DNA of 37,336 nucleotides, taken from the UHGV virus genome UHGV-1375320, one strand, 5' to 3'. This DNA is from a virus. The translations under genes and the position numbers were made by a program. Below the pieces are notes generated by a model. That model was not told where the DNA came from. It did no database searches and was given only the letters and a program-made list of their open reading frames with translations. Of this stretch, positions 10,330 to 35,416 are shown piece by piece (the stretch's first letter is position 1; every line of letters starts with the position of its first letter).

Positions 10330-11025
10330 ATGATATATGGTTATTGCAGAGTATCTACAAAAAAACAAAATATTTTAAGACAGGTGGAAAATATCATAAA
10401 GATATATTCAACTGCTAAAGTATTTCAAGAAGCATATACAGGAACTACAACAGATAGAAAAGAATGGAGTAAGCTAAAAAAAATGGTTAAACCCGGAGAT
10501 ACAATTATATTTGATTCTGTTAGTAGAATGAGTAGAAATGCAGAAGAGGGAATAAAAGAATATTTTAATTTTGTAGAAAGAGATATTGAACTTATATTTT
10601 TAAAAGAGGGATATATCAATACAGCCCTTTATAAAAAAGCTTTAGAGAATAAAATAGATTCAACAGGAAATAAAATAGCTGATATATACATAGACGCAAC
10701 CAATGAAGTATTGAAGATATTAGCTCAAGAACAAATTAAAATAGCATTTGACCAGGCTGAAAAGGAAGTATTAGACCTTAGAGAAAGAACAAAAGAGGGA
10801 CTAAGAGTTACCAAAGCTAAAGGAACTGTATTAGGTAGAAAACAAGGAGATACTTATACTACCAAGAAAGAAAAGGAGATGAGAGAGAAAATAAAAAAAC
10901 TAGCTAAAGATTTTGGAGGAAATCTTAAAGATATAGAAGTCTTTACACTGCTAGGAATAACTAAGAATACATATTACAAGTATAAGAAAAATATTATATT
11001 AGAGGAGGCACAAAATGAGAAATAA
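10330..11025 (+). CDS. Small serine recombinase (resolvase/invertase family)
   Basis: 231 aa. MIYGYCRVSTKKQ carries the catalytic Ser in the canonical G(Y)xRVST context. The size is typical (~185-230 aa). The C-terminal LLGITKNTYYKYKK is an HTH. It has its own promoter and a long upstream leader. Confidence 0.8.
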   Translation: MIYGYCRVSTKKQNILRQVENIIKIYSTAKVFQEAYTGTTTDRKEWSKLKKMVKPGDTIIFDSVSRMSRNAEEGIKEYFNFVERDIELIFLKEGYINTALYKKALENKIDSTGNKIADIYIDATNEVLKILAQEQIKIAFDQAEKEVLDLRERTKEGLRVTKAKGTVLGRKQGDTYTTKKEKEMREKIKKLAKDFGGNLKDIEVFTLLGITKNTYYKYKKNIILEEAQNEK

Positions 11026-11171
11026 ATTATTTTTAATATTTTATAAATTAATGAGGTATCTATTAAAAAAGAAATATATTAAAACTAGAACTTTCTTTTT
11101 AGTTGTTGGAAGAGTAGGGATTGAAGCAGCGACTACTCTTGAACAATTATCTGTCATAGAAAAACTTATAG

Positions 11172-16174: not shown

Positions 16175-19100
16175 TGGCAGGACTTGTAACTTATGGTAAT
16201 AAATTATCTTTAGAGGGTAATGATAATGTAATTAAAATAAATAAAGAATATTATGAGGCTAACAAAGAAAATATAGAAAAATTCAACGTTGTAGGTAATA
16301 AAGTATCTTATGATATACCACAATTAGAAATTATAGGAGATATATTATCTAGTTCTAAAAATATTGCAAAATCAACTTACTATAGTTGGTTAGGAGCTGC
16401 ATATAAAAGTGCAACAGGAGAAACAAAACCTATAGATTTTTTAAAAACAGCAGAGGAAAACCATATAAAATATAAAGATTTTGCAAGTAACTTTAAAGAT
16501 AGCTTTAGAAAAAAAATAGAATTAGAACCCAATATAACTCAAAAGTGGGCTATGAGTGCAGGAGCAGAGAGTTTAAGAGTTGCTACTGATGTAAGACAAC
16601 TCCCTGTATTACTTGGGACCACTCTTTTAACTCCGTATGTTGCAGGATATATAGGAGCTACTTCTGTAGCTGGTAGACTTGGAACAACGGCAGTTTTAAA
16701 TGGTATAGAAAATATGGTGCAAGAAAGTGCAGATATTTATATATCAGAGGGTAGAACTCCAGAACTTGATGAGATTATTTATTCTGGAGTTGGTGGAGCT
16801 GGTGCAGGACTTTTATTTGCTGGTCTAGGAATGGGAATAGGTAAGGTAGCTAATAAAATAGAAACTAAGTTTGATAATATAGCAAGAAAAAAGAAATCCC
16901 AAGAAATAATAATAAATCTATTTTCAGAGGCTGATAAAAAAATACAAGAAAGCTCTATATTAAATAATGGAGATATGACTATAAAAGATTTAGAAAATAC
17001 AGTAGGAATAAAAGATAATCTAGGTATTATAAACGAATATAAAGGTTCTCAAGGTAGTGAAAAATTTTTATTTAAGCATTTATATATAAATGATGTTAAT
17101 AAATTTCAAGCTGACTTATATGCTAGGTCTATTGTCTTAAAAATGATAGATGACCCAGATATAGACTTTATCAAAAATGGAGCTGACTTCAACAAAATTT
17201 TAAATGAAAATCCAATTCTTATAAGAAATTTAGCAAAAGAATATATTGATAGTGGAAAACTTGGAGAGGGAGAAAAGAAAGCTTTTGAGTTCTTTTTAGA
17301 CTTAACTAACCCAGACAAGATAACTGATGTAAGAGTTGATGTCCCAGGAATGATGGAAGAGGTTGATAAAAATCTTAATGGCAACGATAGTGGGTATGAA
17401 CCTTTATTTGAAGATATGAAAGTACAACATCATATAGTTGATAGTGAAACTTTTGAAAGAAAAAAAAGAAAAATAAAGCATAATTATAAAGACTTTCCCA
17501 AAGGGACATTACAAGCAAACCTTGAAAAAGATGGAATTATTCCACCAGGTGCAAATGTTAAGTATGTAAGAGGAGCTATTGAGAAAACACCATATCAAGA
17601 CTTGGTACATATTACAGAACATGGAACTCCAATTACTAGAAAAAAATGGTTAAAGGGAGATGCCCATATCAACTTTGAATATGAAATAGATGGTAAGAAA
17701 TATTATGGAGATTATAGACTTACAGAGCAATATGGATATTTAGGAGATACATATGAGCTTGATATTAACGCAGCACCAGGAACACAAAAAAATATAACAC
17801 CCCAAAGAAAAGTAACTAATATAGTAGATGATATGAATGGAACTCCAGAACCAATAAAACCTATTAGTGTTGAAGAGATGAGGAGCATAGTATATAAAGA
17901 ATTAGGACTAGATAAAACTTTTGGAGAACTAGGACAGAAACAACTTACAGAAGAGTTGGTTTATAGTTACAGTAAAAAAGTAGGGGAAGTTATAAGAAAA
18001 AAATATAATATAAATTCCCTGGAAGAAATGGCAGATTTTTATAAAAAAAGATATGGAATATACTTTAAATTTAAAGGATTTGCAGACTTAAAAGGAGCTA
18101 AAGGGGAAACTATAATAAGAAAAGCTAGAGGAACAAACGAACTTATAGGAGATATAGAAATATTTATTAGTAACAATATTCCAGATTTAGAAACACAATT
18201 AGGAGTGATGAGGCACGAATTACAACATGTATTTGACTTTTACAAAAACCCAGAATTTAAAAGTCAGCCATTTTTCACACCTGTTATATTTGCTAATAGT
18301 GAAGTAGGGGATAGATTAAATAGACTTGGTCGTGGACACTTTGCAGATTTTCCAGAGGAATATTTTGAACTATCGTATCTTATAAAAAATAAGTTAGATA
18401 ACTTAATAAATGGAGAAAAACTTGATAACGAAATAGTAGAAGTATTAAAACTTGAATTACCAAAAACAGTAGGTAAAGAAGATATAGAAGTATATAAAAG
18501 TATGCTAAAGGCAGCTCAAACAGAAAGCGACCCAGCAAAAGCAGTAGCAGAGCTTAGAAAAAGTTTTAGTAAGTATGCTAAGTGGAAAAATGATATACCA
18601 GAGATATTTTGGAAAGCTAAAGACGTTGGACAAGCTTCATCACTTATGAGTGAATATCTTGAAACAAATTTATTTATTCCATACGAGAAAACTAAGCAAC
18701 AAATGGAAGGCATGCTAACTAATGCTTTCAATATAACTTATAAAGGCGAGAAATTAAATCCAGATAAATTAATAAGTTTATTTGAAGAGAATGGAGAAAA
18801 TCTAACTCATTATCTATTTAGATGGAATTATAAAAGTTTACCAGATAGCTTAAAAGAGCTTGAACCAGAGATACTAAAATTAAGAGAAGAGTTTTATAGC
18901 ACTATGAAAGAATTGACAAATGGTTATGAGATAACAGTAGATGACATTGTCAATAATTTTATGTTTGACCATAACCTAAGTGCAGAAAAATATATAAGAC
19001 AAGAAGATATATTGAAATATTTAGGAGATGATAAAAAGGTTGATTTAGATAAATTTATAAGAGGAGATTTGAGTTATGATAATTTAGTAGAACTTAATAT

Positions 19101-21087
19101 CCCAGAAAGATTGCTTACTATAAGAAATGCTTTTGCAGAAGATAATTTAGAGTTCTTTGAATCAGCACCAGAAACTTTAATTAATAATCTTAAAGGAAAG
19201 AATAAAGCTCCTAAAGAAAAAATTATAAAATTAATGGCTAAAGCTAATGAGTGTATGAGTTCATCAGATAAGAAAACACTTGTTAAAAAATATAAACTTG
19301 AGGGAATACCACAAATAAAAGAATTTATTGAAAAATCAGACTTTTACAAAGAGGTAGATACTAACCTTATAGCTCAAAATATACTAGAAAGTAGAAAAAA
19401 TAATGCAAAATATTTTTATACTATGGATATGATGAGTAAGAAAGGAAGTTATAAAAATAAATTTCTTGGAGGGCATCTTCATAGATTTGGTAGATTTGAT
19501 GACTTTATTAATGGAGAAAAAATTATAAAAAGAAAAAATCTAACAAGACTTGTAAATAAAAACAAGACTTCTGATAGAACAGCTATCAGAAGATTTATAA
19601 GAGAAATTTCAGTAGCTAAAGCCATTAAAGATAATTTACCAGGACATGGAATGAAGGGTATAGAAAGAATCTTGAATGAAACTCAAAGAAAAACTGCAAA
19701 TGATACTTATAAAACTTTAGTTAGAGCCATTGAGAAAAAAATAGATGATAGGATAGGAATGGATTTAGGAAGAATTACAAAACCTCCAAAAACAATAGCA
19801 GACAAAGCTATCACTAACCTTTTAAGTTATAGTAATAAAGTTAGTTTAACAGGGCTTAAATTTACAAAGGACTTTATATTTGAAGCACCAACAATGGCAA
19901 GGGCTAGCACTATGTTATATAATTCAGCAGGTATTACTGAAACTTATAAAAATTTTTTAAAGGCTGCACAAGTACTATATTTAAGCAAAGAAATGTTTGA
20001 TAAATATGATAAAGCTTTAGGAAGCAGATTTGAATATTCAGTACCTTTAAAATTTTTCAATTCTATTATGGATAAGGCAGATGATGTAACAGGAGAGATA
20101 GCAGAAAGGATAAATAAGTATGGTAGTAAATGGGAAAAGATAATTAGTGGAATAGACACAGGACTTAATAAATTAAATTTTTATGGAGAGAGCCAAAAGG
20201 TTATGAAACTTGCAGCTTTTTTTGAGGGTGCAGAGATTTTAAGAAATATGAGTAAATTTCAAGACTTAGATGATTTATTTAAAAACAATACTGCCTATAT
20301 GAAAAATTTATTTAAAAATGTAGGTATAGATGATTTAGACTTTTATTTCATAAAAAAATTAAAAGATATTCCAGAATTTAATGAGTTAGGTGTATTTAAT
20401 GAAGTTGACTTATTTGATTTTATAAATAAATCAGAAGTAGAAAAACAATTAGGAAGAGTTCTATACAATGAAGAATTTGACTTAATAAGAAAAAATATTA
20501 CTGAAAAAATAACTAAGTTACATGACAAAATAGTTACTGATATTTCACCTACTGAAACCAACGCTTCTATGAGAGCTGTCATTGAAAATATTGAAAATCC
20601 TATCCACAGAAATTTTATGAGGTTGATGGGAAACTTCAAAACTTCTATACAAGAACAGTGGAGAAGATTGGGAAGAGATTTATACACCTCTAATATAGTA
20701 GATGGGCATTTCGATTGGGGTAATAAGATATGGCAAAAAAGATTATTCAAACATATCTTAGGAGTAACAGGACTATATGGAGGACTAGCACTTGTAACCG
20801 ACTTAGATTTTTACACTGACCCAATAGCAACTATCAATGAAAAAATAGATGATTTAATAGATAGTCCAGGTAGTGCATTTTGGGAAGTACTAGATTCTCA
20901 AATAAACTCTTGGGCTTTAGTTAATGGTTCAGCAGTAGCAAGAAGACCTATACAGATAGCTCAAAATTTATCTAAAGGAGATTTTGAAAAAGCTGGAGCA
21001 AATATTTTAAAACTAGGACTAGGTACCTCAAATGTTAATATGGCTAAAACAGGATATGGTTTAGCAGAAAAAATAGTAGGAGAATAA
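16174..21087 (+). CDS. Giant virion protein (1637 aa) with an HExxH zincin-like motif and a Gly-rich hydrophobic segment; candidate ejection/internal-core protein or tape-measure analogue
   Basis: Uninterrupted 4.9-kb ORF. MRHELQHVFDF is an HExxH motif, with downstream Glu candidates in NSEVGDR/FPEEYFEL. GVGGAGAGLLFAGLGMGIGKV is a membrane-active Gly-zipper-like stretch. It is the last gene before a strong terminator and parallels T7 gp16 by position and size. Confidence 0.45.
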   Translation: MAGLVTYGNKLSLEGNDNVIKINKEYYEANKENIEKFNVVGNKVSYDIPQLEIIGDILSSSKNIAKSTYYSWLGAAYKSATGETKPIDFLKTAEENHIKYKDFASNFKDSFRKKIELEPNITQKWAMSAGAESLRVATDVRQLPVLLGTTLLTPYVAGYIGATSVAGRLGTTAVLNGIENMVQESADIYISEGRTPELDEIIYSGVGGAGAGLLFAGLGMGIGKVANKIETKFDNIARKKKSQEIIINLFSEADKKIQESSILNNGDMTIKDLENTVGIKDNLGIINEYKGSQGSEKFLFKHLYINDVNKFQADLYARSIVLKMIDDPDIDFIKNGADFNKILNENPILIRNLAKEYIDSGKLGEGEKKAFEFFLDLTNPDKITDVRVDVPGMMEEVDKNLNGNDSGYEPLFEDMKVQHHIVDSETFERKKRKIKHNYKDFPKGTLQANLEKDGIIPPGANVKYVRGAIEKTPYQDLVHITEHGTPITRKKWLKGDAHINFEYEIDGKKYYGDYRLTEQYGYLGDTYELDINAAPGTQKNITPQRKVTNIVDDMNGTPEPIKPISVEEMRSIVYKELGLDKTFGELGQKQLTEELVYSYSKKVGEVIRKKYNINSLEEMADFYKKRYGIYFKFKGFADLKGAKGETIIRKARGTNELIGDIEIFISNNIPDLETQLGVMRHELQHVFDFYKNPEFKSQPFFTPVIFANSEVGDRLNRLGRGHFADFPEEYFELSYLIKNKLDNLINGEKLDNEIVEVLKLELPKTVGKEDIEVYKSMLKAAQTESDPAKAVAELRKSFSKYAKWKNDIPEIFWKAKDVGQASSLMSEYLETNLFIPYEKTKQQMEGMLTNAFNITYKGEKLNPDKLISLFEENGENLTHYLFRWNYKSLPDSLKELEPEILKLREEFYSTMKELTNGYEITVDDIVNNFMFDHNLSAEKYIRQEDILKYLGDDKKVDLDKFIRGDLSYDNLVELNIPERLLTIRNAFAEDNLEFFESAPETLINNLKGKNKAPKEKIIKLMAKANECMSSSDKKTLVKKYKLEGIPQIKEFIEKSDFYKEVDTNLIAQNILESRKNNAKYFYTMDMMSKKGSYKNKFLGGHLHRFGRFDDFINGEKIIKRKNLTRLVNKNKTSDRTAIRRFIREISVAKAIKDNLPGHGMKGIERILNETQRKTANDTYKTLVRAIEKKIDDRIGMDLGRITKPPKTIADKAITNLLSYSNKVSLTGLKFTKDFIFEAPTMARASTMLYNSAGITETYKNFLKAAQVLYLSKEMFDKYDKALGSRFEYSVPLKFFNSIMDKADDVTGEIAERINKYGSKWEKIISGIDTGLNKLNFYGESQKVMKLAAFFEGAEILRNMSKFQDLDDLFKNNTAYMKNLFKNVGIDDLDFYFIKKLKDIPEFNELGVFNEVDLFDFINKSEVEKQLGRVLYNEEFDLIRKNITEKITKLHDKIVTDISPTETNASMRAVIENIENPIHRNFMRLMGNFKTSIQEQWRRLGRDLYTSNIVDGHFDWGNKIWQKRLFKHILGVTGLYGGLALVTDLDFYTDPIATINEKIDDLIDSPGSAFWEVLDSQINSWALVNGSAVARRPIQIAQNLSKGDFEKAGANILKLGLGTSNVNMAKTGYGLAEKIVGE

Positions 21088-23024: not shown

Positions 23025-24404
23025 GTGTTTAAGCAAATGTTAAATTTTAAAAAAGAGTATTTTAAGTTAGAAGAGAATAGACAACAATATACTACTAGCT
23101 TTTCAGACTTAATGACAAGTTGTGAAGTTTACGGAAAAAAACAAAATCCTATAACTAGCACAGCTTTTATATTCCTTATACCTAAAGATTATTACACATA
23201 CAATGCTGGAAACATTGATTTTACTAACTACCCAGATGGCATATGGAATGATTACACAGATATTAAGATAGTTAAGTCTGAACCTTATTTTGATTTAGAT
23301 TTTACTTTTAGTAGTACAGGAGATATTACACCAGAAAATCTAAATAATATGTTTACTAAAATAAAAGCTGCAATACTTGGAACAGAAAAAGAAATTATAA
23401 AATCTCAATTATTTGTAGATAGTGGAATACCAAAACAATTAGGTTTACCAGATTTACCAAAAGGTTCTATCTGGTATATGTCAGATGATGGGATAGCTAC
23501 TTATCCTGTAACTACACTATTTGAGAAATATCAAGAGTTGCTCAATAAGATTTATGAAGATACAAAAAAAATATTACTTGAAGATTTGGATAATAGAGTA
23601 AAAGAGCTAGTTATTCAATTAGAAAAAGATTTAAAAGAAATTATTGATAATTATCTTAAAACAGATAGTTATTTAAAATTAGATAAATATACACAAGAAA
23701 AAATAGAAGAAGCAGAAAAAGAAATCCAAGATTATATAGACTATCATATGCAAGATTTAAAAGGAGAAAGAGGGTACTCAATAGCAAGTGTTGGTTTTAA
23801 TAAAGAATTACCAGAAGGAAACGTCTATACAGTCTACCGTGAAGACGGAGAAATTATAGGAGAATTATTAGCACGAAGAGGTCCTCAAGGTATTCAAGGC
23901 AATGATGGACCAGAAGGACCGAAAGGAGAAAGAGGAGAAAGAGGATTCAAAGGAGATAAAGGGGACCAAGGAGAAAGAGGGGAAAATGGACCTCAAGGTA
24001 TTCAAGGAGAGCAAGGAATACAAGGAGAAGTTGGACCTCAAGGTCCTCAAGGAATAACAGGTCCTCAAGGTATTCAAGGAATACAAGGAGAACAAGGTAT
24101 TCAAGGAGAAAGAGGACTTCAAGGACTAAAAGGCGAACAAGGCGTTCAAGGAATACAAGGAGAACAAGGACCTAAGGGAGAGCAGGGAGATATCGGACCT
24201 CAAGGTCCTCAAGGAATACAAGGTCCTAAAGGAGATAAGGGAGATAAAGGAGATAATGGAACTGCTGTAATTACTCCTATAAATAGTCAGTACATATTCC
24301 AAATAGAAGATGGAAACTTAGTTGTGTATTATAACGAGAATGATACTCAACCAAATTTTTCAATAGATGAAGATGGAAATTTAGTATTAGAAATTTTAGA
24401 ATAA
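23025..24404 (+). CDS. Collagen-like repeat protein, putative tail fibre
   Basis: 459 aa. About 125 residues of perfect G-X-Y triplets ([19 protein letters not shown]...[10 protein letters not shown]). It lies downstream of terL and next to a second collagen-like fibre gene. Confidence 0.65.
23878..24262 (+). repeat. Collagen G-X-Y coding repeat tract (fibre gene 1)
   Basis: Iterated 9-nt-periodic units ggtcctcaaggtattcaagga and ggagaacaaggaatacaagga. Several 20-40 nt stretches are shared verbatim with fibre gene 2. Confidence 0.85.
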
Positions 24405-24417
24405 GGAGGTTTTAATT

Positions 24418-25530
24418 ATGCCAAAATTAATTATAGGTAATGTTGTAGGTCCTCAAGGTCCTAAAGGAGAACAAGGAGATATCGGACCTCAAGGTCCTAA
24501 AGGAGAACAAGGAATACAAGGGGAACAAGGTATTCAAGGTTTACCTGGTGCAAAAGGAGAACAAGGAATACAAGGTCCTCAAGGTCCTAAAGGAGATACT
24601 GGAGAGCAGGGTATTCAAGGTCCTAAAGGAGATAAGGGAGATACTGGACCACAAGGTCCTCGAGGTCCTCAAGGTATTCAAGGACCTAAGGGAGACAAAG
24701 GGGAACAAGGTATAACTGGAAATACTGGTCCTAAAGGTCCTAAAGGAGATACTGGAGAGCAGGGTATTCAAGGTCCTAAAGGAGCTGATGGAGTAGGAGT
24801 AAAAAGTATAACATTTAAGAATACTAATGAAGATGGTGGAAATGTTTATACTGTGACTTTAACTAATGGTAGCACATATGATTTTACTGCCCCTAGAGGT
24901 CAACAAGGGATACCAGGACAAAGCGGTCAACCTGGGACTACCGATTATGAAAAATTAATAAACAAACCAGATGTATATACTAAAACTGAAACTAATAATT
25001 TATTAGATGGTAAATTAGGTAAAGAAGATAAAGCGAAGAGTGCTACAACTGCTGATAGTGCTGGTGCTTGTACAGGGAACTCTGCTACTGCTACAAAATT
25101 ACAAACTGCTAGAACTATCAACGGAGTTAGTTATGATGGTAGTGCCGATATTACAATAGCTGATAATACAAAACTTCCAAAATCCGGTGGTACTATTAAT
25201 GGAAACTTAACAGTAATAGGAGCTATTGTTTCAAACGGAGAAGTTACGGCTTATTCAGATAGAAGATTAAAAACTGATATAACAAAGATAACTAATGCTC
25301 TTAAAAAAGTAAATCAAATCAATGGGTACACATTCACTATGTTAGGTACAGGGCAAAGACAAGCTGGAGTTATAGCTCAAGAAATCGAGAAAGTATTACC
25401 AGAAGTTGTAGTTCAAAATGAGGATAACGGGTATCTAACAGTAGCATATGGAAATATAGTAGCTTTATTAATAGAAGCTATTAAAGAGTTGAGTAATGAA
25501 GTTAAAGAATTAAAAGGGGGTAGGGTATAA
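24418..25530 (+). CDS. Collagen-like tail fibre with C-terminal intramolecular chaperone (peptidase S74) domain
   Basis: 370 aa. G-X-Y tract at residues ~10-125. C-terminal [12 protein letters not shown]...[20 protein letters not shown] matches the S74 auto-cleaving chaperone signature (SD.RLK.NI ... G.IAQE....PE) found on phage fibres and endosialidases. Confidence 0.7.
24448..24795 (+). repeat. Collagen G-X-Y coding repeat tract (fibre gene 2)
   Basis: Same repeat family as 23878-24262. For example, ggagaacaaggagatatcggacctcaaggtcct occurs in both genes. Confidence 0.85.
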
Positions 25531-27482: not shown

Positions 27483-27937
27483 TGGGAGATTTTACTAGAA
27501 TAGTAACAGATTTCTTTTGGTTGTTGGTTGATGTAATAAAAATTTTAAGTAATTGTGTAGCAATAGGAATAGGAAGTTTAGTAGCCTTTATCTTTATGAT
27601 TACAGGTGGGCAAGATGAAGCTTTAAGAATATTACTTATACTTATGGCAGTTGATTATATATCTGGAGTTATCAAAGCTTATATTACTTGTACTGCTAAT
27701 AGTAAACTAGGTATAATAGGAATGTTAAAAAAGGTTATGATAATTCTAGTTATAGTATTAGCTTATCATCTGGACATACTACTTGGTAGTAAATTAGGAA
27801 TAAAGACTTTAACAATAGGAGTTTTTATTTCAAATGAGGGACTTTCTATATTAGAAAATGCAAGTATCTGTGGAGTGCCTATTCCAGAGAAAATAAAAAA
27901 AGTATTAGTTCAATATCAAGAGTATAAGAAAAAATAA
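27482..27937 (+). CDS. Holin, TcdE/phage_holin_4_1 family
   Basis: The start was moved to the ATG at 27482 (GGAGG RBS 5 nt upstream); the ORF track start at 27428 lacks an RBS. 151 aa with 3 TM segments. ...AVDYISGVIKAY...SKLGIIGMLKKV...FISNEGLSILENASICGVPIPEKI matches the TcdE-type holin signature. Confidence 0.6.
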   Translation: MGDFTRIVTDFFWLLVDVIKILSNCVAIGIGSLVAFIFMITGGQDEALRILLILMAVDYISGVIKAYITCTANSKLGIIGMLKKVMIILVIVLAYHLDILLGSKLGIKTLTIGVFISNEGLSILENASICGVPIPEKIKKVLVQYQEYKKK

Positions 27938-27981
27938 AATGTGAGCTTATGAGCCTTAGAATAGGGTAGGTCAAAACAAAA

Positions 27982-28010
27982 AGAGAGGTAAATATATACC
28001 TCTCTTTTTT
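27982..28010. terminator. Bidirectional intrinsic terminator between convergent holin and partition operons
   Basis: AGAGAGGTA / TACCTCTCT 9-bp stem, loop AATATA, with a T-run on the + side and an A-run on the other side. Confidence 0.6.
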
Positions 28011-28038
28011 AAACCTCTTAAAAACGATTTTAAAGGCT

Positions 28039-28296
28039 CTATTTTAATTTTAAATCAACCTTAAAATCAATTAAGTCAAAATAAAATATTTTATCTGTAC
28101 TGTAATAACTTTCTGTATTTGCTTGGAACTCATCTAATTTTAAAGTAATATCTCCAACAATAATTTTATATCCATCTTGTATGTCTATAATATCTAAAAC
28201 TTCTACATCATTTTTAAAATATGTTATCAACCCATTTGTTATAGTTATACTTTGAATGTTTTCTCTATTTCCTTTTAATAAATCCTTTAATTTCAT
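28039..28296 (-). CDS. Hypothetical protein (last gene of rep-par operon)
   Basis: 85 aa with ATGA overlap to the upstream gene. Confidence 0.4.
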   Translation of the reverse strand: MKLKDLLKGNRENIQSITITNGLITYFKNDVEVLDIIDIQDGYKIIVGDITLKLDEFQANTESYYSTDKIFYFDLIDFKVDLKLK

Positions 28297-28970
28297 TAGC
28301 TCAACCCCTTTATCTTTTCTTTTAGTTCAGCCTTAACAGTTTTCAATTCTTTCAACTCTTCCTCTAATTTTCTAATTTTCGCCTCTACCTCCGACAGTCT
28401 GGATACCAGCTTATCTTTTTCAGATTCCTCTACTATCTCGGCATCTTCTATTTCGAGAGCTCTCGAAATAGCTTTTTTTATCCCTTGAGCTGTTCTTATT
28501 TCACCATTTACCACTCTTGCTATAACATCACTTGGTGCTTTTTTGTTTGTTATTTGCTTAATCTCTGCGTCTGATAAAGTCTGTATAATTTTACTTTCTG
28601 GATATTCTAAAGATAGTTTATATCTTCCTCTTAGTAATGACACTTGGTCTTTATTGAATCCTAAAGCTTGGTACCATTCCATATAACTTTGAGAATTTTC
28701 AGAGTATCTATCAAAAAGCCCTCTAGCTTCATCTAACATTCTACCTGTTTCTATTGCTAATTTCCCAACTTCTTTTTTATTTGTAATTATTTTTTTCTCT
28801 ATATTTATCAGTTCTCTTACATCATCTTGGGAAAAGTTTTCCAATACTGAATAATCAAATAAGAGTTCAGTTGTTACTAATTCTTTAGTGGTTTGTGTTT
28901 CTTGTAGTGTTGCTGGTTTAGTTATATTTCTAATACCTAAACTACTTCTTTTTATTGTTGGTTTTCCCAT
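28296..28970 (-). CDS. Putative partition adaptor/centromere-binding protein (ParB analogue, non-canonical)
   Basis: 224 aa, immediately downstream of parA and overlapping it by 19 nt. Helical N-terminal half plus a C-terminal coiled coil (KLVSRLSEVEAKIRKLEEELKELK). No ParB GERRxRA motif, so the family is unassigned. Confidence 0.3.
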   Translation of the reverse strand: MGKPTIKRSSLGIRNITKPATLQETQTTKELVTTELLFDYSVLENFSQDDVRELINIEKKIITNKKEVGKLAIETGRMLDEARGLFDRYSENSQSYMEWYQALGFNKDQVSLLRGRYKLSLEYPESKIIQTLSDAEIKQITNKKAPSDVIARVVNGEIRTAQGIKKAISRALEIEDAEIVEESEKDKLVSRLSEVEAKIRKLEEELKELKTVKAELKEKIKGLS

Positions 28971-29761
28971 ATCTCTAACAACTCCTTAGTAAGATTTTTA
29001 AAGTCTTTAGCTCCATTACTTGTAGGGCTATATTGTCCTATAAAATATCCATCTCTAGCACAATATTTTAATTTTCCATTATCTCTAATTTGAGTTTTTA
29101 AAATATTAGGATATCCCTCTCTAATTTCTTCTATGTCTTTTAAAATATCTTTATCAAGTGGCACCTGGTTAAAATATCCAAGGTGTATAAATGGAGTGCT
29201 TAAATTTTCTTTTAAAGCTTCTATAAATTGCAACATTATATTTAACCCTTGAACACTATATATATGTGGTATTATTGGAGTTAAAACATAATTGCTAAGA
29301 GATAACACAGCTCTTTCTAAAGAATCTATACTAGGTCTACAATCAAATATTACATAGTCATAATCTAATTTTTCAAGCTCTGATTTTAGATTGAAATATA
29401 TCATTTCTTGGTCCCATTTATCCATTGTTAAATCTAGGTTTCTTAGGTCATAACTACCTTTGATAAAATCTAAAATATATCTTCCTTTTTCTACTTCATT
29501 AATACCTGTATCTTTATTTTCTACTATTTTTAGTTCATGTATTTGTATTATATTATTTGCTAAAGACTTTTCTTTTAAAGCTTTGAATAAGTCTTTTTCT
29601 TCATCATCAAATATAAAACTTTGTGTTAAGTTCTGCTGATAGTCACAATCTACCAGCAATATTTTTTTATTAAAATTAAGTGCTAACATTCCAGCGACTT
29701 CCCTTGCCCCTGTTGTTTTTCCTGTTCCACCCTTTTGATTTATAAATGATACTACTTTCAT
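28952..29761 (-). CDS. parA: ParA/Soj-family partition ATPase
   Basis: 269 aa. The deviant Walker A KGGTGKTT is at the N-terminus (MKVVSFINQKGGTGKTTGA). Walker A' (LLVDCDYQ) and Walker B (VIFDCRP) contexts are present. Strong AAGGGGG RBS. Confidence 0.8.
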   Translation of the reverse strand: MKVVSFINQKGGTGKTTGAREVAGMLALNFNKKILLVDCDYQQNLTQSFIFDDEEKDLFKALKEKSLANNIIQIHELKIVENKDTGINEVEKGRYILDFIKGSYDLRNLDLTMDKWDQEMIYFNLKSELEKLDYDYVIFDCRPSIDSLERAVLSLSNYVLTPIIPHIYSVQGLNIMLQFIEALKENLSTPFIHLGYFNQVPLDKDILKDIEEIREGYPNILKTQIRDNGKLKYCARDGYFIGQYSPTSNGAKDFKNLTKELLEIWENQQ

Positions 29762-30717
29762 TTTACCCCCTTAATATGATTAAATATGTAACTAAAACTT
29801 CTAATCTCAATATTGATATTTTTGTAACATGAAATCAAGCCTTTTTTCAATTGCTCATATGGAAAGTTCTCCATAAGTTTTCCAACATTTTCAAGTGTTA
29901 AATAAGGTTCTATAAACCTATTTTTTCTAGCTTTTTCTAAAGCTTTTTCCAAATCTTCTAACTGTTCAAATGTTAATGATTCAACTTTTTCAGCCTCTTT
30001 TATTTCTGTTTCAGTTCCATCTTTATCTAGCACTTCCATTTGCTCTATATCCCAACTCAAAATTATTTTAGTAATAAATTTTCCTGTTCTTACTCTTTCC
30101 ATTTTTAGATTTTTTATATTAGTTTTCTCTGCTAGTTCTTCTGCAGCTTTTTTTATTATCTTAGTTTCTACATCTACCCATCTATATTGAGTATTTAAAA
30201 TTTTTAAAAATTCATCTGGTGCAAATTCCCAAGACTTTAAATTTTTATAACTCATAACTATTTGATAGAGCCTCTTGGAATGTCTACCCTTTAAACCTGT
30301 AAATTCTAGTAATTCATGTCTTGTAAAATTATTGCTTAAATTAAAAAAAAGTGGGATAAAATCTTTTTTTAATTCAAATATAATTTCTGTTTTATCTTCT
30401 GTATACATCAAAGTTTCAAATATGTGTTTATGCAGCTTGTACCCATCTTTTTTTATTTGAACACTTGTATTAAAAATGTTTTTCAAAGCCTCTTCTATTC
30501 TTTTGGTACTTACATTTCCTTGAACCATTTTTTTTATGACTTTAGGGTCTAAAAACAAATTTACATTCTCATTTGTATTTACATTCATATGGTCTTTAAT
30601 TTTTTTTCTAGCAGCATAAGCTAAAGTTACAATTAAATCAAGTTCATAACTTCCAAACTCATTGAAGCTGGTAGCAAAATCTTTTGAGTATTCTACAACT
30701 TCATTTTTAATTTCCAT
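29758..30717 (-). CDS. Rep_3-family (iteron-binding) plasmid replication initiator
   Basis: 319 aa. LKGRHSKRLYQIVMSYKN and FLKILNTQYRWVDVETKIIKKAAEELAEKTNI match the winged-helix Rep_3 signatures (S.Y..RLYELL ; F...L.......+..+.A..EIN..T.I). Iterons lie directly upstream, and its stop overlaps parA. Confidence 0.6.
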   Translation of the reverse strand: MEIKNEVVEYSKDFATSFNEFGSYELDLIVTLAYAARKKIKDHMNVNTNENVNLFLDPKVIKKMVQGNVSTKRIEEALKNIFNTSVQIKKDGYKLHKHIFETLMYTEDKTEIIFELKKDFIPLFFNLSNNFTRHELLEFTGLKGRHSKRLYQIVMSYKNLKSWEFAPDEFLKILNTQYRWVDVETKIIKKAAEELAEKTNIKNLKMERVRTGKFITKIILSWDIEQMEVLDKDGTETEIKEAEKVESLTFEQLEDLEKALEKARKNRFIEPYLTLENVGKLMENFPYEQLKKGLISCYKNINIEIRSFSYIFNHIKGVK

Positions 30718-30806
30718 GTCTTACCCCCTTTTCACTCTGATATAATTTTAACTTATATTTTCTTTTTATACAACATTTTTTTATTTTTTTTCACACTATT
30801 AATAAA

Positions 30807-30943
30807 CTGACAAAACTTCACACTATTGACAAAACTTCACACTATTCTGACAAAACTTCACAGTATAGTCTGACAAAACTTCACACTATACCCCTCTATT
30901 TCTGACAAAACTTCACACTATTCTGACAAAACTTCACAGTATC
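30807..30943. repeat. Iteron array (six direct repeats of ~21 bp), putative oriV/Rep binding sites
   Basis: CTGACAAAACTTCACACTATT at 30807, 30828, 30848 (ACAGTAT variant), 30871, 30903 and 30924, spaced 20-23 bp with one 32-bp gap. A seventh diverged copy lies at 31056-31075 (TGACAAAACTTCGTGGTATT). The array is flanked by an AT-rich TAAACT-repeat stretch at 30975-31045. Confidence 0.7.
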
Positions 30944-31198
30944 TTGTTTCTAGCTCTCTAAAATTAAGAGCTGGAGAGGACTGTAAACTCTATAAACTAT
31001 TATAAACTATATTATATATAAACTCTCTAAACTATTTTAGAGATTTTTTTATTTTTGACAAAACTTCGTGGTATTATAATTTTAAAAAGATATTGACTTA
31101 TACCCAAAAGTATATTATACTACTGTATCCAAATTTTTAACCCCATATAAGATGCTTTTTTTAATCGTCATATGTTATTCGAGATTCTTTAATAAAAG

Positions 31199-31224
31199 TG
31201 GCAGGAATAAACCTGCCATTTTTA
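31199..31224. terminator. Intrinsic terminator at the end of the recombination operon
   Basis: TGGCAGG / CCTGCCA stem, loop AATAAA, T-run on the + side. It overlaps the SSAP stop codon. Confidence 0.5.
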
Positions 31225-32181
31225 TTTACTTGTTAGTAACTCTTTTAACTCTTCATATTCTTTATTATTCAATCTTTCAAGTAATACTTTATTATATTTT
31301 CTTTTACACTCCATAAGTAAAATACCTTGTTTATCTAATTTTAATAACTCTTGGATTTGCTCTTCTGTAATATCACTTACTGGAGTAACTTCTTTTAAAT
31401 CAGATATTTTTAATTGCCCCTCTTTAATACCATTATAAGCTAATTTTAAATTAACTAGATGGCTAGAAGTCCAGCTCTCATATGGACAGTTTAAAAAATT
31501 TTCTAGTTCTTGCTTAGAAAGATTTAATTTATTTTCCAAGAAAATTAATATCTGTTCTTTAGCTTGTGAAATATCCTCTATGCTTTCAATCTCTCTTTCC
31601 ATAGTTGTTTTTATCTCTTCTATGCAGGAATCTAAAATATAATTAGGTATTAAATTCAAGATACAACCTCTTAAAAATCTAGCTCCATAACTTGCTTTCA
31701 TCTCGTATTGGTCCCTCATATCTGTTAAAACATAAGCACCTTTTTTTGTATATCTTTTCATAGATACATCAAATTGCTTTGTAGTTTTGATATTGTTTTC
31801 AACGTCCCAGGCATAAGCTAACATTGTAGATTTTCCATCATCTGTATCTAATTCTATTACCGAGTATTGAATATTACCCCAAGCTCTTGCAACTGCTTCA
31901 GCAAATCTTATAGTTAAACCTTGCACAACTTCTCCACCTCTAGGAAATGAATATAAGGCAGTATCAGCAAAATTCTTTCTTTTACATAGCTCTAGTATTT
32001 TATTTTCTGCTTTTATTTCATCTCTAGGAAATTGTTTTGCTAAAAATACTGCTGCCTTTACTTCCTCAAGTAATCTACTTTCAATCCCCATTTCCATTTG
32101 TTCTGCCTTTATCTCTTTAACAGGCTTCATCTCTGAAACCTGTTTCTTTCCCATCATATTGTTTTTAGCTATTACTTCCAT
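31222..32181 (-). CDS. RecT/Red-beta-family single-strand annealing protein
   Basis: 319 aa, immediately downstream of a YqaJ exonuclease, which is the classic exo+SSAP pair. The core LYSFPRGGEVVQGLTIRFAEAVARAWGNIQYSVIELDTDDGKSTMLAYAWDVENN fits the RecT-family annealing domain. Confidence 0.55.
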   Translation of the reverse strand: MEVIAKNNMMGKKQVSEMKPVKEIKAEQMEMGIESRLLEEVKAAVFLAKQFPRDEIKAENKILELCKRKNFADTALYSFPRGGEVVQGLTIRFAEAVARAWGNIQYSVIELDTDDGKSTMLAYAWDVENNIKTTKQFDVSMKRYTKKGAYVLTDMRDQYEMKASYGARFLRGCILNLIPNYILDSCIEEIKTTMEREIESIEDISQAKEQILIFLENKLNLSKQELENFLNCPYESWTSSHLVNLKLAYNGIKEGQLKISDLKEVTPVSDITEEQIQELLKLDKQGILLMECKRKYNKVLLERLNNKEYEELKELLTSK

Positions 32182-34129: not shown

Positions 34130-34576
34130 CTATGCTATCGCTTGTAGGTTGCTTCCTTGTACTCTTTGCCAACCATATTTTTGTTTTAACTCTTCATAAT
34201 CTCCCTTGAATGTTCCTTTTCCTTTTTTCTCTCCAAAGTACCATTTTTTTCTTTTAGCACTCCATCTAAAACCAAGTTCTTTTAACTGTTCCTTGTATAA
34301 GAAAGTATTACCAGATACCCATATCCAAGAGCCTACAACATCAATCTCTAAACCATGGAAATGTATTATTTTCTTTAGTATCTCCATAACCTCTGGGGCT
34401 ATCTCTTCCCCTGCTTCCCTTGCTTGTTGTTTAAATCCCTCAAGTTGTATTCTTTCATACTCTGCCATCATCTCTTTGAAGTTCTCTTCGTTTCCACCAT
34501 GGTCTGGGTGTAATCTCTTACATAATTCTCTATATTGTTTTTTTAAATCCTCGTTACTGTTAAAGTATTTATACAT
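34130..34576 (-). CDS. J-domain (DnaJ N-terminal domain) protein
   Basis: 148 aa. KQYRELCKRLHPDHGGNEENFKEMMAEYERI contains the invariant HPD tripeptide in the canonical helix II-III context of J domains. It is the first gene of the leftward early operon. Confidence 0.6.
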   Translation of the reverse strand: MYKYFNSNEDLKKQYRELCKRLHPDHGGNEENFKEMMAEYERIQLEGFKQQAREAGEEIAPEVMEILKKIIHFHGLEIDVVGSWIWVSGNTFLYKEQLKELGFRWSAKRKKWYFGEKKGKGTFKGDYEELKQKYGWQRVQGSNLQAIA

Positions 34577-34631
34577 ATTACCAACTCCTTATATTTTCTA
34601 CTTGCTTTTATGTTTTTTGTGGTTTATAATG

Positions 34632-34732
34632 CAAGTAAATAACTTGTATATTTGACTATATAATACAAGTGATTTACTTGCTTGTCAAGTAAAAATTTTT
34701 ATTTTATAATAAAATTACAAGTTAATTAGTTG
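34632..34732. promoter_or_regulatory. Divergent early/repressor promoters with CAAGT-N5-ACTTG operator repeats (genetic switch)
   Basis: O1 CAAGTAAATAACTTG (34632-46), O2 CAAGTGATTTACTTG (34666-80), a half-site CAAGT at 34686-90, and O4 CAAGTTAATTAGTTG (34718-32, one mismatch). Rightward promoter: TTGTCA (34682-87), 17 bp, TATAAT (34705-10). Leftward promoter: TTGACA (revcomp of 34683-88), 17 bp, TATTAT (revcomp of 34660-65), with O2 in its spacer. Confidence 0.5.
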
Positions 34733-34759
34733 CAAAACTAGAAAGGACAAGGTTTTTAT

Positions 34760-35416
34760 ATGGAAAAAAAGACAGGAGAAACTTTAAAAAATATTAGAAA
34801 AAAATATAACATTACAGGAGAAAAGATGGCAGAAATTTTAGGGTGTAGCACTCAATTTATTTATGCAATAGAAAAAAATAAAAATAAATTTCCTGTAAAA
34901 AAATTAGAATTGATAAAAAATATTGTATCTGAAATCGATTATTTCGATTTAATAGAAGCAATAAAATTTGATACTGAACCTGCAAGCCTTAAAAACGAAG
35001 TTTTAAAAATCCAAAGTATAGAAGAGATAAAACAAAAGAAGATACCTTTTTATCCAGATATTGAAGCTTCAGCAGGGTATGGAAGATTTAATGATAGTGA
35101 AATTGTAGAGTTCTTAGAAGTTCCAGAAGATTTAGCAAGACCAGGAAATATAGCTATAAGAGTTGCTGGAGATTCTATGGAACCAGAGATTAAAGACGGA
35201 GATACTATTGTAATAGATACAAATTGTATAGAATGTATTTTAAATAAAATAATAGTTGTTAATTATCAAGGGGCAGTATATTTAAAAAAATATGTTGAAG
35301 AAAATGGAAAAATATTTTTAAAAAGTATAAATCCATATTACCCTAAAATTAGAATAGGAAACAGAGAAGAACTTAGAGTTATTGGGAAGTTAAAAAGTGT
35401 TATGAGGTATTATTAG
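34760..35416 (+). CDS. CI/LexA-like phage repressor (XRE HTH + peptidase S24)
   Basis: 218 aa. N-terminal HTH LKNIRKKYNITGEKMAEILGCSTQFIYAIEKNK. The C-terminal S24 domain has Ser in AGDSMEP and Lys in GAVYLKKY. Confidence 0.8.
   Translation: MEKKTGETLKNIRKKYNITGEKMAEILGCSTQFIYAIEKNKNKFPVKKLELIKNIVSEIDYFDLIEAIKFDTEPASLKNEVLKIQSIEEIKQKKIPFYPDIEASAGYGRFNDSEIVEFLEVPEDLARPGNIAIRVAGDSMEPEIKDGDTIVIDTNCIECILNKIIVVNYQGAVYLKKYVEENGKIFLKSINPYYPKIRIGNREELRVIGKLKSVMRYY

What the first reader, a model, noticed from the sequence alone, without database searches (positions are those of the whole stretch)
30780..31100. Iteron-type origin: six tandem 21-bp repeats, one distal copy, and a TAAACT-rich AT tract
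CTGACAAAACTTCACACTATT recurs six times with helical-phase spacing (20-23 bp) and one 32-bp gap. A seventh diverged copy 110 bp away overlaps a TTGACA box. Between them lies a tract of TAAACT(A/C)T repeats that looks like a DNA-unwinding element. The rep promoter (TTGTAT-17-TAAAAT, minus strand at ~30745-30775) lies just downstream of the array, which suggests Rep autoregulation and handcuffing copy control.
Basis: seen in the sequence. Interest (0 to 1): 0.55.

Follow-up and report, generated by a model that had tools for sequence, protein, structure and literature searches.

The report
Iteron replication origin of a phage-plasmid
This is the plasmid-type replication origin of an uncultured phage that probably persists as a plasmid: repeated binding sites for its own initiator protein sit beside an easily melted AT-rich tract, an ordinary and well-known design found here in an undescribed phage lineage.

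Summary
Six same-orientation copies of (C)TGACAAAACTTCAC(A/G)... lie at 30807-30942 (spacings 19, 21, 23, 32, 21 bp). There is a half copy at 30790-30800, a distal variant at 31053-31074, and five TAAACT(A/C)T units at 30984-31035. The adjacent minus-strand gene (29758-30717) encodes a Rep_3 initiator with a WH1+WH2 fold. parA and an uncharacterised partner gene follow it, inside a ~37 kb phage genome with a CI/LexA-type repressor and no integrase.

Comparison across 13 related loci supports the origin reading:
- The repeat sequence changes with Rep, not with the partition proteins.
- Spacer, iterons, promoter and rep are swapped as one cassette.
- The AT tract is the most conserved intergenic block and ties for the least stable 40-bp duplex in the window.
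- Its end lies exactly 52 bp from the first iteron core in all 13 loci.
- A Fusobacterium varium plasmid has the same layout.

The "diverged seventh copy" is a conserved separate site, identical in a relative with different iterons. This clade also lacks the half-iteron inverted-repeat operator seen in a sister clade, so autoregulation and handcuffing remain inference. No DnaA box was found. Verdict: a new member of a known kind, of modest interest.

The parts
29758..30717 (-). rep: 319-aa Rep_3-family initiator. WH1+WH2 occupy residues ~1-225, followed by a variable C-terminal tail.
   Evidence: Pfam Rep3_N 5.2e-16 and Rep3_C 4.4e-07, both above the curated cut-offs. The AlphaFold model (pLDDT 75.9) matches F RepE and R6K pi bound to iteron DNA by Foldseek, with probability 1.00 and TM up to 0.72 normalised to target length.
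30745..30773 (-). Probable rep promoter TTGTAT-17-TAAAAT, followed by RBS AAAGGGGG and the ATG at 30717.
   Evidence: Read directly from the sequence. The same hexamers and 17-nt spacing occur in L011 and L005 with different spacers, and L014 has TTGCTT-17-TAAAAT. It is only an 8/12 consensus match and was not called by the scan.
30790..30800 (+). Half iteron (TTCACACTATT; ATAGTGTGAA on the rep strand), 17 bp upstream of the -35 box and followed by an A-rich tract.
   Evidence: The same half site occurs at the same place in L011, L014, L007 and L012.
30807..30942 (+). Iteron array of six direct repeats. On the rep strand each reads ATA(G/C)TGT-GAAGTTTTGTCA(G/A). Spacings are 19, 21, 23, 32, 21 bp.
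   Evidence: six exact 14-mers, none expected by chance. The sequence co-varies with Rep across relatives.
30943..30983 (.). Spacer with higher GC content and a short inverted repeat (AGCTCT...AGAGCT). Its length is fixed.
   Evidence: The distance from the end of the AT tract to the first iteron core is exactly 52 bp in all 13 loci although the spacer sequence diverges.
30984..31041 (.). AT-rich tract with five TAAACT(A/C)T units (AGTTTA on the rep strand). Candidate DNA-unwinding element.
   Evidence: Ties for the least stable 40-bp duplex of the window (z 2.92, rank 2) and ranks 2 at 60 bp. It is the most conserved intergenic block across loci. The clustering has P about 7e-12.
31053..31074 (+). 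Distal TACCAC-type site (ATACCACGAAGTTTTGTCAAAA on the rep strand), on the far side of the AT tract.
   Evidence: A 20-nt stretch is identical in L014/L015 while the flanks diverge. It equals the array iteron of L005. It overlaps a minus-strand TTGTCA-16-TAAAAT promoter-like site.
31093..31121 (+). Outward-facing promoter-like site TTGACT-17-TATACT.
   Evidence: 10/12 match. L005 has the same hexamers and spacing with a different spacer.
31191..31226 (.). Bidirectional intrinsic terminator. It ends the upstream recombination operon on the minus strand and a ~100-nt + strand transcript.
   Evidence: two terminator-like sites found, 0.0 expected. The fold of 31127-31232 has z -4.35.
28952..29761 (-). 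parA: 269-aa ParA/Soj-type partition ATPase, overlapping the rep stop codon.
   Evidence: Pfam AAA_31 6.8e-35, PHROG 164 ParA-like 2.8e-44, NCBIfam ParA_partition 1.6e-23.
28296..28970 (-). 224-aa ParA partner candidate ('ParB-like') of unknown family with a coiled-coil C-terminus.
   Evidence: It sits immediately after parA in all relatives. The only family match is phrog_32652, of unknown function, and nothing matches in the PDB. Its role is inferred from position alone.

Best explanation
The region 30745-31074 is the vegetative/plasmid origin (oriV) of the Rep_3 replicon carried by this ~37 kb temperate phage, which most likely persists as a low-copy plasmid prophage. The proposed mechanism is inferred from the Rep_3/iteron family, except where a step is marked as shown.

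1. Rep monomers bind the six 19-20 bp iterons. The conserved half (GAAGTTTTGTCA) and the variable half (ATAGTGT) are each read by one winged-helix domain. Shown: Rep has the RepE/pi fold, and the iteron sequence co-varies with Rep.
2. The Rep-iteron complex sits at a fixed 52-bp distance from the AT tract and melts it. Shown: the tract is about the least stable duplex in the genome and the best conserved intergenic block.
3. The sequence conservation of the AGTTTA units suggests sequence-specific contact with the melted strand, as described for RepE and TrfA. The host helicase would then be loaded there. No DnaA box is present, so host DnaA may not be needed.
4. rep, parA and the partner gene are transcribed from TTGTAT-17-TAAAAT just downstream of the array.
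5. Copy-number control through iteron saturation or handcuffing, and through the distal TACCAC site, is plausible but untested.

The cassette of spacer, iterons, promoter and rep is exchanged as a unit between near-identical phage backbones, as expected for an incompatibility determinant.
For: The adjacent gene is a Rep_3 WH1+WH2 initiator. Its model matches RepE-iteron, RepE-operator, RepE-DUE ssDNA and pi-iteron structures.

The array is unique to this locus: six exact 14-mers against none expected.

Eight distinct Rep types carry arrays of about 21-22 bp at the same place, with a shared TTTTGTCA-type half and a type-specific half.

A natural experiment separates Rep from Par. L007, L009 and L013 have 98-100% identical ParA and ParB-like proteins but Reps only 52-60% identical, and they have three different iteron types. 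The window and L011 have Rep WH domains 91% identical and the same iteron, but ParA 51% and ParB-like 48% identical.

blastn breakpoints bracket the spacer-iterons-promoter-rep cassette.

In the sister clade, inverted repeats over the rep promoter or leader are built from the variable half of the iteron and change with it: GTGAAAAA/TTTTTCAC versus AGGGAA/TTCCCT.

For the AT tract: duplex stability z 2.92, rank 2 of about 37,000 windows; most conserved block; 52-bp spacing in 13 of 13 loci.

The Fusobacterium varium plasmid pFV113-g1-2 (Rep 28.7% identical) has the same order of AT repeats, spacer, six 22-bp iterons, half-iteron inverted repeat and rep, with 54 bp between tract and first iteron and no adjacent par genes.

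The layout matches published descriptions of pCI305/pWV02-type origins (PMC4293149) and of repeated motifs in plasmid unwinding elements bound by Rep as ssDNA (PMC4980987).

For the plasmid-prophage context: ParA, an S24 CI/LexA-type repressor, portal, capsid, holin and tail-fibre genes are present, and no integrase was found among the ORFs of 180 aa or more, apart from the 1637-aa ORF, which was not scanned. Assemblies are circularly permuted relative to each other. No contig over 50 kb carries any of these Reps.
Against: Nothing here shows Rep binding, melting or autonomous replication; every functional step is inferred.

No DnaA box within one mismatch occurs in the window's intergenic region, unlike P1, F, RK2 and pSC101.

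The window's clade lacks the inverted-repeat operator. The iterons lie upstream of the core promoter rather than over it, so autorepression has no anatomical support here.

The region as a whole is AT-rich, and one other site (11012-11052) is equally unstable.

The partition centromere was not located, so a second role for part of this region cannot be fully excluded.

GC skew follows gene orientation and does not mark the origin.
Confidence: 0.88

Rival explanations
1. The repeats, or the TAAACT tract, are the partition centromere (a parC/parS-type repeat array upstream of a rep-parA-parB operon). They would be bound by the ParB-like protein and would not be origin elements.
For: rep, parA and the partner gene appear to form one operon directly downstream. 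Type Ib partition loci often place repeat-array centromeres upstream of parA (own knowledge). No other centromere-like array was found downstream of the partner gene.
Against: The 21-bp array tracks Rep and not the partition proteins: identical ParA and ParB-like proteins go with three different arrays, and diverged Par proteins go with the same array. L009 and L013 share an identical ParB-like protein but their AT-tract motifs differ. The F. varium plasmid has the same AT-repeat tract and iterons with no adjacent par genes. A fixed 52-bp distance to the first iteron is expected for an unwinding element and not for a centromere.
Confidence: 0.05
2. It is a lytic-phase phage origin only, like the lambda O protein with ori-lambda. 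Rep would fire it after induction, and the element would not be maintained as a plasmid.
For: Rep is the only recognisable replication initiator in the window, and it follows an early operon with YqaJ exonuclease and an SSAP-like protein. The same origin may therefore also serve lytic replication.
Against: A ParA partition ATPase and partner gene are translationally coupled to rep in all relatives. No integrase is present. rep has its own promoter downstream of a terminator that insulates it from the early operon. Its closest annotated homologues are plasmid Reps.
Confidence: 0.06
3. The array is mainly a transcriptional operator set for the rep-par operon or for phage immunity, and replication starts elsewhere.
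For: The array lies just upstream of the rep promoter, and a half iteron abuts the -35 region.
Against: The CI-type repressor and its divergent promoter region lie 4 kb away, at about 34580-34760. The repeats co-vary with a RepE/pi-fold initiator. They are flanked at a fixed distance by a conserved, minimally stable AT tract, and a pure operator would not need one.
Confidence: 0.03

Closest known systems
Iteron origins of Rep_3-type (WH1-WH2) initiators: F ori2/RepE, R6K gamma ori/pi, pPS10 oriV/RepA
   Same: The initiator fold is the same (Foldseek top hits). Both have same-orientation iterons of about 19-22 bp spaced about two helical turns apart, in the order AT-rich tract, iterons, rep promoter, rep. 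Repeated short motifs occur inside the AT tract, as in RK2 and F, where Rep binds one DUE strand (PMC4980987; PDB 8aan/8ac8 among the hits).
   Different: Sequence identity to RepE and pi is only 14-16% in the structural alignment. No DnaA box was found. There is no second control array such as incC, only one distal variant site. The window's clade has no inverted-repeat operator over the rep promoter. The replicon sits in a phage genome.
pCI305/pWV02-type theta replicons of lactococci (RepB; AT-rich region, 3.5 x 22-bp iterons, two inverted repeats, rep leader)
   Same: The described layout is nearly the same: an AT-rich region, then tandem iterons of about 22 bp ending in a half repeat next to the rep promoter (PMC4293149). 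Both use Rep_3-family initiators.
   Different: There are six and a half repeats instead of three and a half. The two inverted repeats are absent in this clade, though the sister clade has them. No close sequence relationship to lactococcal RepB was seen: the plasmid hits were Fusobacteriota, Bifidobacterium, Acinetobacter and Campylobacter.
Fusobacteriota plasmid replicons, for example Fusobacterium varium pFV113-g1-2 (AP017970.1)
   Same: This is the closest annotated Rep (28.7% identity over 98% of the protein). The origin layout is the same: phased xTTTAx repeats, a GGCT-AAACT-type spacer, six 22-bp iterons ending in TGTAACA (like L013), a half-iteron inverted repeat over a TTGACA box, and 54 bp between the tract and the first iteron.
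   Different: It is a 68 kb mobilisable plasmid, not a phage. Its Rep is longer (445 aa), no parA is coupled to rep, and the iteron sequence differs.
Plasmid prophage P1 (oriR/RepA, incA, parABS)
   Same: Both are temperate phages that appear to be maintained as plasmids by an iteron-binding initiator plus a ParA-type partition system. P1's oriR also has short repeated motifs in its AT-rich part (own knowledge).
   Different: In P1 the repA promoter lies inside the iterons, a second array (incA) lies downstream of repA, DnaA boxes are needed, and there is a separate lytic replicon (own knowledge; DnaA boxes per PMC4980987). None of these was found here. The structural genes are unrelated: the best portal hits are 23-24% identical, to marine podoviruses.

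Membership tests
Iteron-type theta replicon with a Rep_3 (WH1-WH2) initiator | Initiator with tandem winged-helix domains WH1 and WH2 encoded next to the repeats | tested here: met
   Pfam Rep3_N 59.7 bits (cut-off 22.4) and Rep3_C 30.5 bits (cut-off 21.1). Foldseek against the PDB gives RepE and pi complexes as top hits, probability 1.00.
Iteron-type theta replicon with a Rep_3 (WH1-WH2) initiator | Three or more direct repeats of about 17-22 bp, in the same orientation, spaced about two helical turns apart, adjacent to rep | tested here: met
   Six copies plus a half copy, with spacing 19-23 bp and one 32-bp gap.
Iteron-type theta replicon with a Rep_3 (WH1-WH2) initiator | Repeat sequence is specific to the cognate Rep (co-variation across relatives) | tested here: met
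   Iteron type changes with Rep and is independent of ParA and the ParB-like protein. The cassette is exchanged as a unit.
Iteron-type theta replicon with a Rep_3 (WH1-WH2) initiator | AT-rich DNA-unwinding element next to the iterons | tested here: met
   The tract is minimally stable, is the most conserved block, and sits at a fixed 52-bp distance. Actual melting cannot be tested with these tools.
Iteron-type theta replicon with a Rep_3 (WH1-WH2) initiator | Host DnaA boxes in the origin (present in P1, F, RK2 and pSC101; optional in the family) | tested here: not met
   No TTATCCACA within one mismatch in the window's intergenic region.
Iteron-type theta replicon with a Rep_3 (WH1-WH2) initiator | Inverted repeat of half iterons overlapping the rep promoter (operator for dimer-mediated autorepression) | tested here: not met
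   Absent in the window, L011 and L014. Present in L007, L009 and L012, where it co-varies with the iteron.
Iteron-type theta replicon with a Rep_3 (WH1-WH2) initiator | Rep binds the iterons, and the fragment supports autonomous replication | not testable with these tools
   Needs EMSA or footprinting and a replication assay.
Phage-plasmid (plasmid prophage) | Phage structural, lysis and immunity genes together with plasmid replication and partition genes on one element | tested here: met
   Portal, capsid, holin, collagen-like fibres and an S24 repressor occur with Rep_3 and ParA.
Phage-plasmid (plasmid prophage) | No integrase | tested here: met
   No tyrosine or large serine integrase was found among the listed ORFs of 180 aa or more; the 1637-aa ORF at 16174-21087 was not scanned. 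The only recombinase is a 231-aa resolvase/invertase-type serine recombinase at 10330-11025.
Phage-plasmid (plasmid prophage) | Extrachromosomal circular maintenance in the lysogen | tested here: inconclusive
   Assemblies are circularly permuted, and no contig over 50 kb carries these Reps. Virion DNA would give the same picture.
Partition centromere (parC/parS repeat array) | Repeat sequence tracks the centromere-binding protein | tested here: not met
   identical Par proteins go with three different arrays, and the same array goes with Par proteins only 48-51% identical.

The most novel reading that the evidence does not exclude
The origin may work without DnaA through a fixed-geometry 'iterons, 52-bp spacer, AGTTTA repeats' unwinding module, in which Rep or a host factor reads the conserved AGTTTA units as single-stranded DNA. 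The distal TACCAC site is better conserved than the array iterons and identical to the array iteron of a sister element. It may be a deliberately weak or cross-specific Rep site used for copy-number control or for interference between related phage-plasmids. The element's own J-domain protein (34130-34576, with an intact HPD motif) might recruit host DnaK to convert Rep dimers into active monomers. Exchange of the rep/iteron cassette among near-identical phages would then be driven by incompatibility, much as immunity regions are swapped among lambdoid phages.
Probability: 0.2. Interest if true: 0.55.

Novelty: new member of a known kind. Interest (0 to 1): 0.35.

Why it matters
The origin is of a textbook type, so the mechanism is not surprising. 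Its value lies in the context. It identifies an uncultured ~37 kb phage lineage, probably infecting Fusobacteriota such as Cetobacterium or Fusobacterium, as likely plasmid prophages with a Rep_3/ParA maintenance module. It also provides a natural series of eight Rep/iteron specificity variants on closely related backbones. That series could be used to map which Rep residues read which iteron positions, to study incompatibility-driven cassette exchange in phage-plasmids, and to build replicons and shuttle vectors for Fusobacteriota, where genetic tools are scarce.

Tried and rejected
- Nucleotide searches of the locus against the GenBank phage and PLSDB plasmid collections found nothing, and Rep had no protein match in phage records.
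- The first genome-contig scan with Rep alone found nothing. The profile scan gave only a partial Cetobacterium MAG hit.
- Rfam gave no family for the window or six related loci at gathering thresholds, and only chance-level hits for 30600-31400. The repeats are therefore not a known RNA or CRISPR element.
- The sequence-only PDB search with Rep was marginal (RepE, E 0.9); structure prediction plus Foldseek was needed.
- The DnaA-box search was negative for the window.
- GC skew follows gene orientation (extremes near 28 kb and 35 kb) and does not mark the origin.
- The centromere hypothesis for the array and for the tract was tested and rejected.
- A search for a centromere array downstream of the partner gene found nothing convincing.
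- The second half-iteron-like sequence downstream of the -10 (AGAGTGAAAAGG, 30723-30735) is not conserved in L011 or L014 and is treated as chance.
- The + strand TTGACA box in the distal site has a TATAAT only 14 nt away and was not accepted as a promoter.
- I did not try to assign specificity-determining Rep residues from the alignment, because eight types are too few.
- Literature searches found no description of this phage group or of Fusobacteriota phage-plasmids.

Full report
**Observation.** The sequence at 30780-31100 is as described.
- The 14-mer TGACAAAACTTCAC occurs exactly six times, at 30808, 30827, 30848, 30871, 30903 and 30924. All copies are on the + strand and there are none elsewhere in the 37,336-bp window. 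None is expected in dinucleotide-preserving shuffles.
- Full repeat units are about 19-20 bp, and start-to-start spacings are 19, 21, 23, 32 and 21 bp.
- A 40-nt block covering two units (30827-30866) recurs exactly at 30903-30942, which indicates a recent internal duplication.
- A half unit, TTCACACTAT(T), lies at 30790-30800.
- The seventh copy (31053-31074, TTTTGACAAAACTTCGTGGTAT) starts 110 bp beyond the array.
- Five TAAACT(A/C)T units occupy 30984-31035. Only 11 more occur in the rest of the window on both strands, which gives a Poisson P of about 7e-12 for this cluster.

**Gene context.**
- The minus-strand ORF 29758-30717, whose start codon lies 90 bp from the nearest iteron, has Pfam Rep3_N (WH1) and Rep3_C (WH2) domains above the curated thresholds.
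- An AlphaFold model built from 19 homologues (mean pLDDT 75.9) finds F-plasmid RepE and R6K pi as its best PDB matches. These include the iteron, operator and DUE-ssDNA complexes.
- rep overlaps a 269-aa ParA ATPase gene (28952-29761). A 224-aa protein of unknown family follows (28296-28970).
- Upstream on the same strand are a YqaJ exonuclease, an SSAP-like protein (phrog_3657) and small early genes, ending in an intrinsic terminator at 31199-31218.
- Elsewhere the window carries a portal, capsid, collagen-like tail fibres, an endolysin-like gene, a holin and an S24 CI/LexA-type repressor.
- No tyrosine or large serine integrase was found among the ORFs of 180 aa or more that were scanned; the 1637-aa ORF at 16174-21087 was not scanned. 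The only recombinase is a 231-aa resolvase/invertase-type enzyme.
- There is no near match in GenBank phages or PLSDB plasmids.
- The closest annotated Reps are plasmid Reps of Fusobacterium, Cetobacterium and Leptotrichia at 23-29% identity. A Cetobacterium MAG carries a partial 46% homologue.
- Near-identical IMG/VR contigs of 37.0 and 37.5 kb are circularly permuted relative to the window.
- None of the Rep homologues was seen on a contig over 50 kb.
- Together these points indicate a temperate phage maintained as a plasmid, probably in Fusobacteriota. The extrachromosomal state itself is not proven.

**Comparative test of the repeats.** The large protein database gave 19 Rep homologues at 42-100% identity. 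I retrieved DNA for eight distinct Rep types. All share the same gene order: SSAP, a gene-free gap, rep, parA, the partner gene, then the lysis genes. Every one has a same-orientation array of units of about 21-22 bp upstream of rep.

| Locus | Rep homologue | Array unit (rep strand) | Copies |
|---|---|---|---|
| window, L001, L002, L011 | P0001, P0003 | ATA(G/C)TGT-GAAGTTTTGTCAG | 6 |
| L005 | P0009 | ATACCAC-GAAGTTTTGTCA | 4 |
| L014 | P0010 | AAGGTGT-GAAGTTTTGTCAG | 5 |
| L007 / L008 | P0011 | AAAGTGT-GAAGTTTTGTCAG | 5 / 6 |
| L009 / L010 | P0015 (identical Rep) | AAAAGG-GAAGTCTTGTCAA | 3 / 8 |
| L012 | P0012 | TAAGTGT-GACGTTTTGTCAA | 2 |
| L013 | P0017 | A(C/G)TACGACAnnnTGTAACA | about 8 |

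- L007, L009 and L013 have 98-100% identical ParA and partner proteins, but their Reps are only 52-60% identical and they carry three different arrays.
- The window and L011 have Rep WH domains 91% identical and the same array, but ParA is 51% and the partner protein 48% identical.
- The repeats therefore belong to Rep and not to the partition system, which rules out the centromere rival for the array.
- blastn breakpoints between the near-identical backbones bracket the spacer, iterons, promoter and rep, so these move as one cassette.

**The AT tract.**
- In nearest-neighbour duplex-stability profiles, 30991-31031 ties for the least stable 40-bp stretch of the whole window (z 2.92, rank 2). 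It ranks 2 at 60 bp and 4 at 100 bp.
- In a MAFFT alignment of the core origin from eight loci, the block TTTATA(A/T)AGTTTATA...AGTTTA is the best conserved part of the intergenic region, more so than the iterons.
- The distance from the last TTTA of the tract to the first iteron 12-mer core is exactly 52 bp in all 13 loci examined. This holds even in L013, whose iterons and tract motif both differ, and despite divergence of the spacer sequence.
- The F. varium plasmid pFV113-g1-2 has the same order: AATCTTTAA repeats, a GGCTGAAACTCC-type spacer, six 22-bp iterons, a half-iteron inverted repeat over a TTGACA box, then rep. The corresponding distance is 54 bp and there are no par genes nearby.
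- These features fit a DNA-unwinding element held in fixed register with the Rep-iteron complex. The sequence conservation, beyond mere AT content, matches what is described for the repeated motifs of RK2 and F unwinding elements, which Rep binds as single strands (PMC4980987; PDB 8aan/8ac8 among the hits). Melting itself remains inferred.
- No DnaA box within one mismatch is present in the window's intergenic region.

**The distal site.** The seventh copy is not just a decayed iteron.
- On the rep strand it reads ATACCAC-GAAGTTTTGTCAAA.
- The same 20 nt occur at almost the same distance from rep (-340 versus -350) in L014/L015. Their array iterons differ from the window's and the flanks have diverged.
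- The same sequence is the array iteron of L005.
- Related TAC(T/G)ACGACATTTTGT(C/A)A sites occur singly and inverted near the rep promoter of L009, L012 and L020, and they form the array in L013.
- All loci except L005 have at least one TTTTGTCA-type site on the far side of the AT tract.
- The role of this site is not settled. Candidates are a weak Rep site for looping or copy control, a promoter operator, or a remnant of cassette exchange. It overlaps a minus-strand TTGTCA-16-TAAAAT promoter-like site that points through the tract toward rep, but that site is not clearly conserved in L014.

**Regulation.**
- TTGTAT-17-TAAAAT (30773-30745, minus strand) is a weak consensus match, but it recurs with the same spacing in L011 and L005.
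- In the sister clade (L007, L009, L012, L020), inverted repeats made of the variable half of the iteron overlap the rep promoter or leader and change with the iteron type. This is the arrangement used for dimer-mediated autorepression in F and pPS10 (own knowledge), and it matches the two inverted repeats of pCI305/pWV02 origins (PMC4293149).
- The window's own clade lacks this inverted repeat. It has only a direct half iteron 17 bp upstream of the -35 box, and the last full iteron ends about 34 bp upstream of it.
- Autoregulation and handcuffing are therefore reasonable inferences from the family, but the anatomy here does not demonstrate them.

**Verdict.**
- It is a new member of a well-known kind.
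- The points of some interest are the invariant 52-bp geometry, the absence of DnaA boxes, the conserved TACCAC-type distal site, exchange of the rep/iteron cassette between near-identical phages, and iteron copy-number variation with identical Rep proteins (3 versus 8 copies).
- Confidence that the region is the Rep-dependent origin is about 0.88. Confidence that the TAAACT tract is the unwinding element is about 0.7. Confidence in autoregulation or handcuffing as stated is about 0.4.

Noticed in passing
window 34130-34576 (-): A 148-aa early-operon protein has a J-domain (Pfam DnaJ E 8.6e-6, just below the gathering score) with an intact HPD motif, plus DUF5710. A homologue is present in L009. 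Rep_3 initiators of P1 and F need DnaK/DnaJ for monomerisation (own knowledge), so an element-encoded J protein could be linked to Rep activation.
   Followed up: no
window 31093-31226 (+): An outward-facing TTGACT-17-TATACT promoter-like site is followed about 100 nt later by a bidirectional terminator. The predicted transcript folds with z -4.35. L005 has the same hexamers and spacing. There is no Rfam match. It may be a small RNA next to the origin.
   Followed up: partly
L005 ~3190-3560; L009 ~2700-3090; L012 ~2370-2840: A conserved insert of about 450 nt with higher GC content lies between the SSAP gene and the origin in some relatives (GAGCCGATAGGCACTAATCGGTT...GGGCGGATAAGTACGGAC). It is absent from the window. 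It looks structured and is preceded on the opposite strand by a TTGAC-type box. No Rfam family matched at gathering thresholds.
   Followed up: partly
window 10330-11082: A 231-aa serine recombinase of resolvase/invertase type (the best NCBIfam hit is the Mpi invertase family, below cut-off) sits among the structural genes. It is followed immediately by the other least-stable AT stretch of the window (11012-11082). In L011 and L014 a resolvase lies beside the par genes, so it may be a multimer-resolution system.
   Followed up: no
L009 3672-3734 vs L010 3134-3300; L007 vs L008: Iteron copy number varies between contigs that encode the identical Rep protein: 3 versus 8 copies, and 5 versus 6. 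The window itself carries an exact 40-nt two-iteron duplication (30827-30866 = 30903-30942).
   Followed up: partly
window 28296-28970 (-) and 27937-28296: The ParA partner protein has no recognisable family (only phrog_32652; no PDB sequence match) and has a coiled-coil C-terminus. No centromere-like repeat array was found downstream of it in the window or in relatives, so the partition site is unidentified.
   Followed up: partly
L007 4918-5424, L009 4918-5424, L013 4951-5457: An extra 168-aa ORF with no Pfam hit is inserted between rep and parA in one clade. It is absent from the window and from L010, which encodes the same Rep as L009.
   Followed up: no
L014 ~2230-2300: A 21-codon, strongly hydrophobic ORF (MKCKIIIACIIIIIILNYLEK) with its own RBS and terminator lies just upstream of the distal site. 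It resembles a small membrane peptide or a type I toxin.
   Followed up: no
window 23025-25530 (+): Two consecutive tail-fibre-like proteins carry long collagen triple-helix repeats, and the second ends in a Peptidase_S74 intramolecular chaperone domain. These account for most of the tandem-repeat calls in the window.
   Followed up: no
window 30889-30901; L011, L005, L014 arrays: The single 32-bp (21+11) spacing within the array recurs in relatives, at different positions in the array. The extra DNA shares a GAAAT(A/T)nAGG-like motif, which could be a host-factor site or a phasing element.
   Followed up: no
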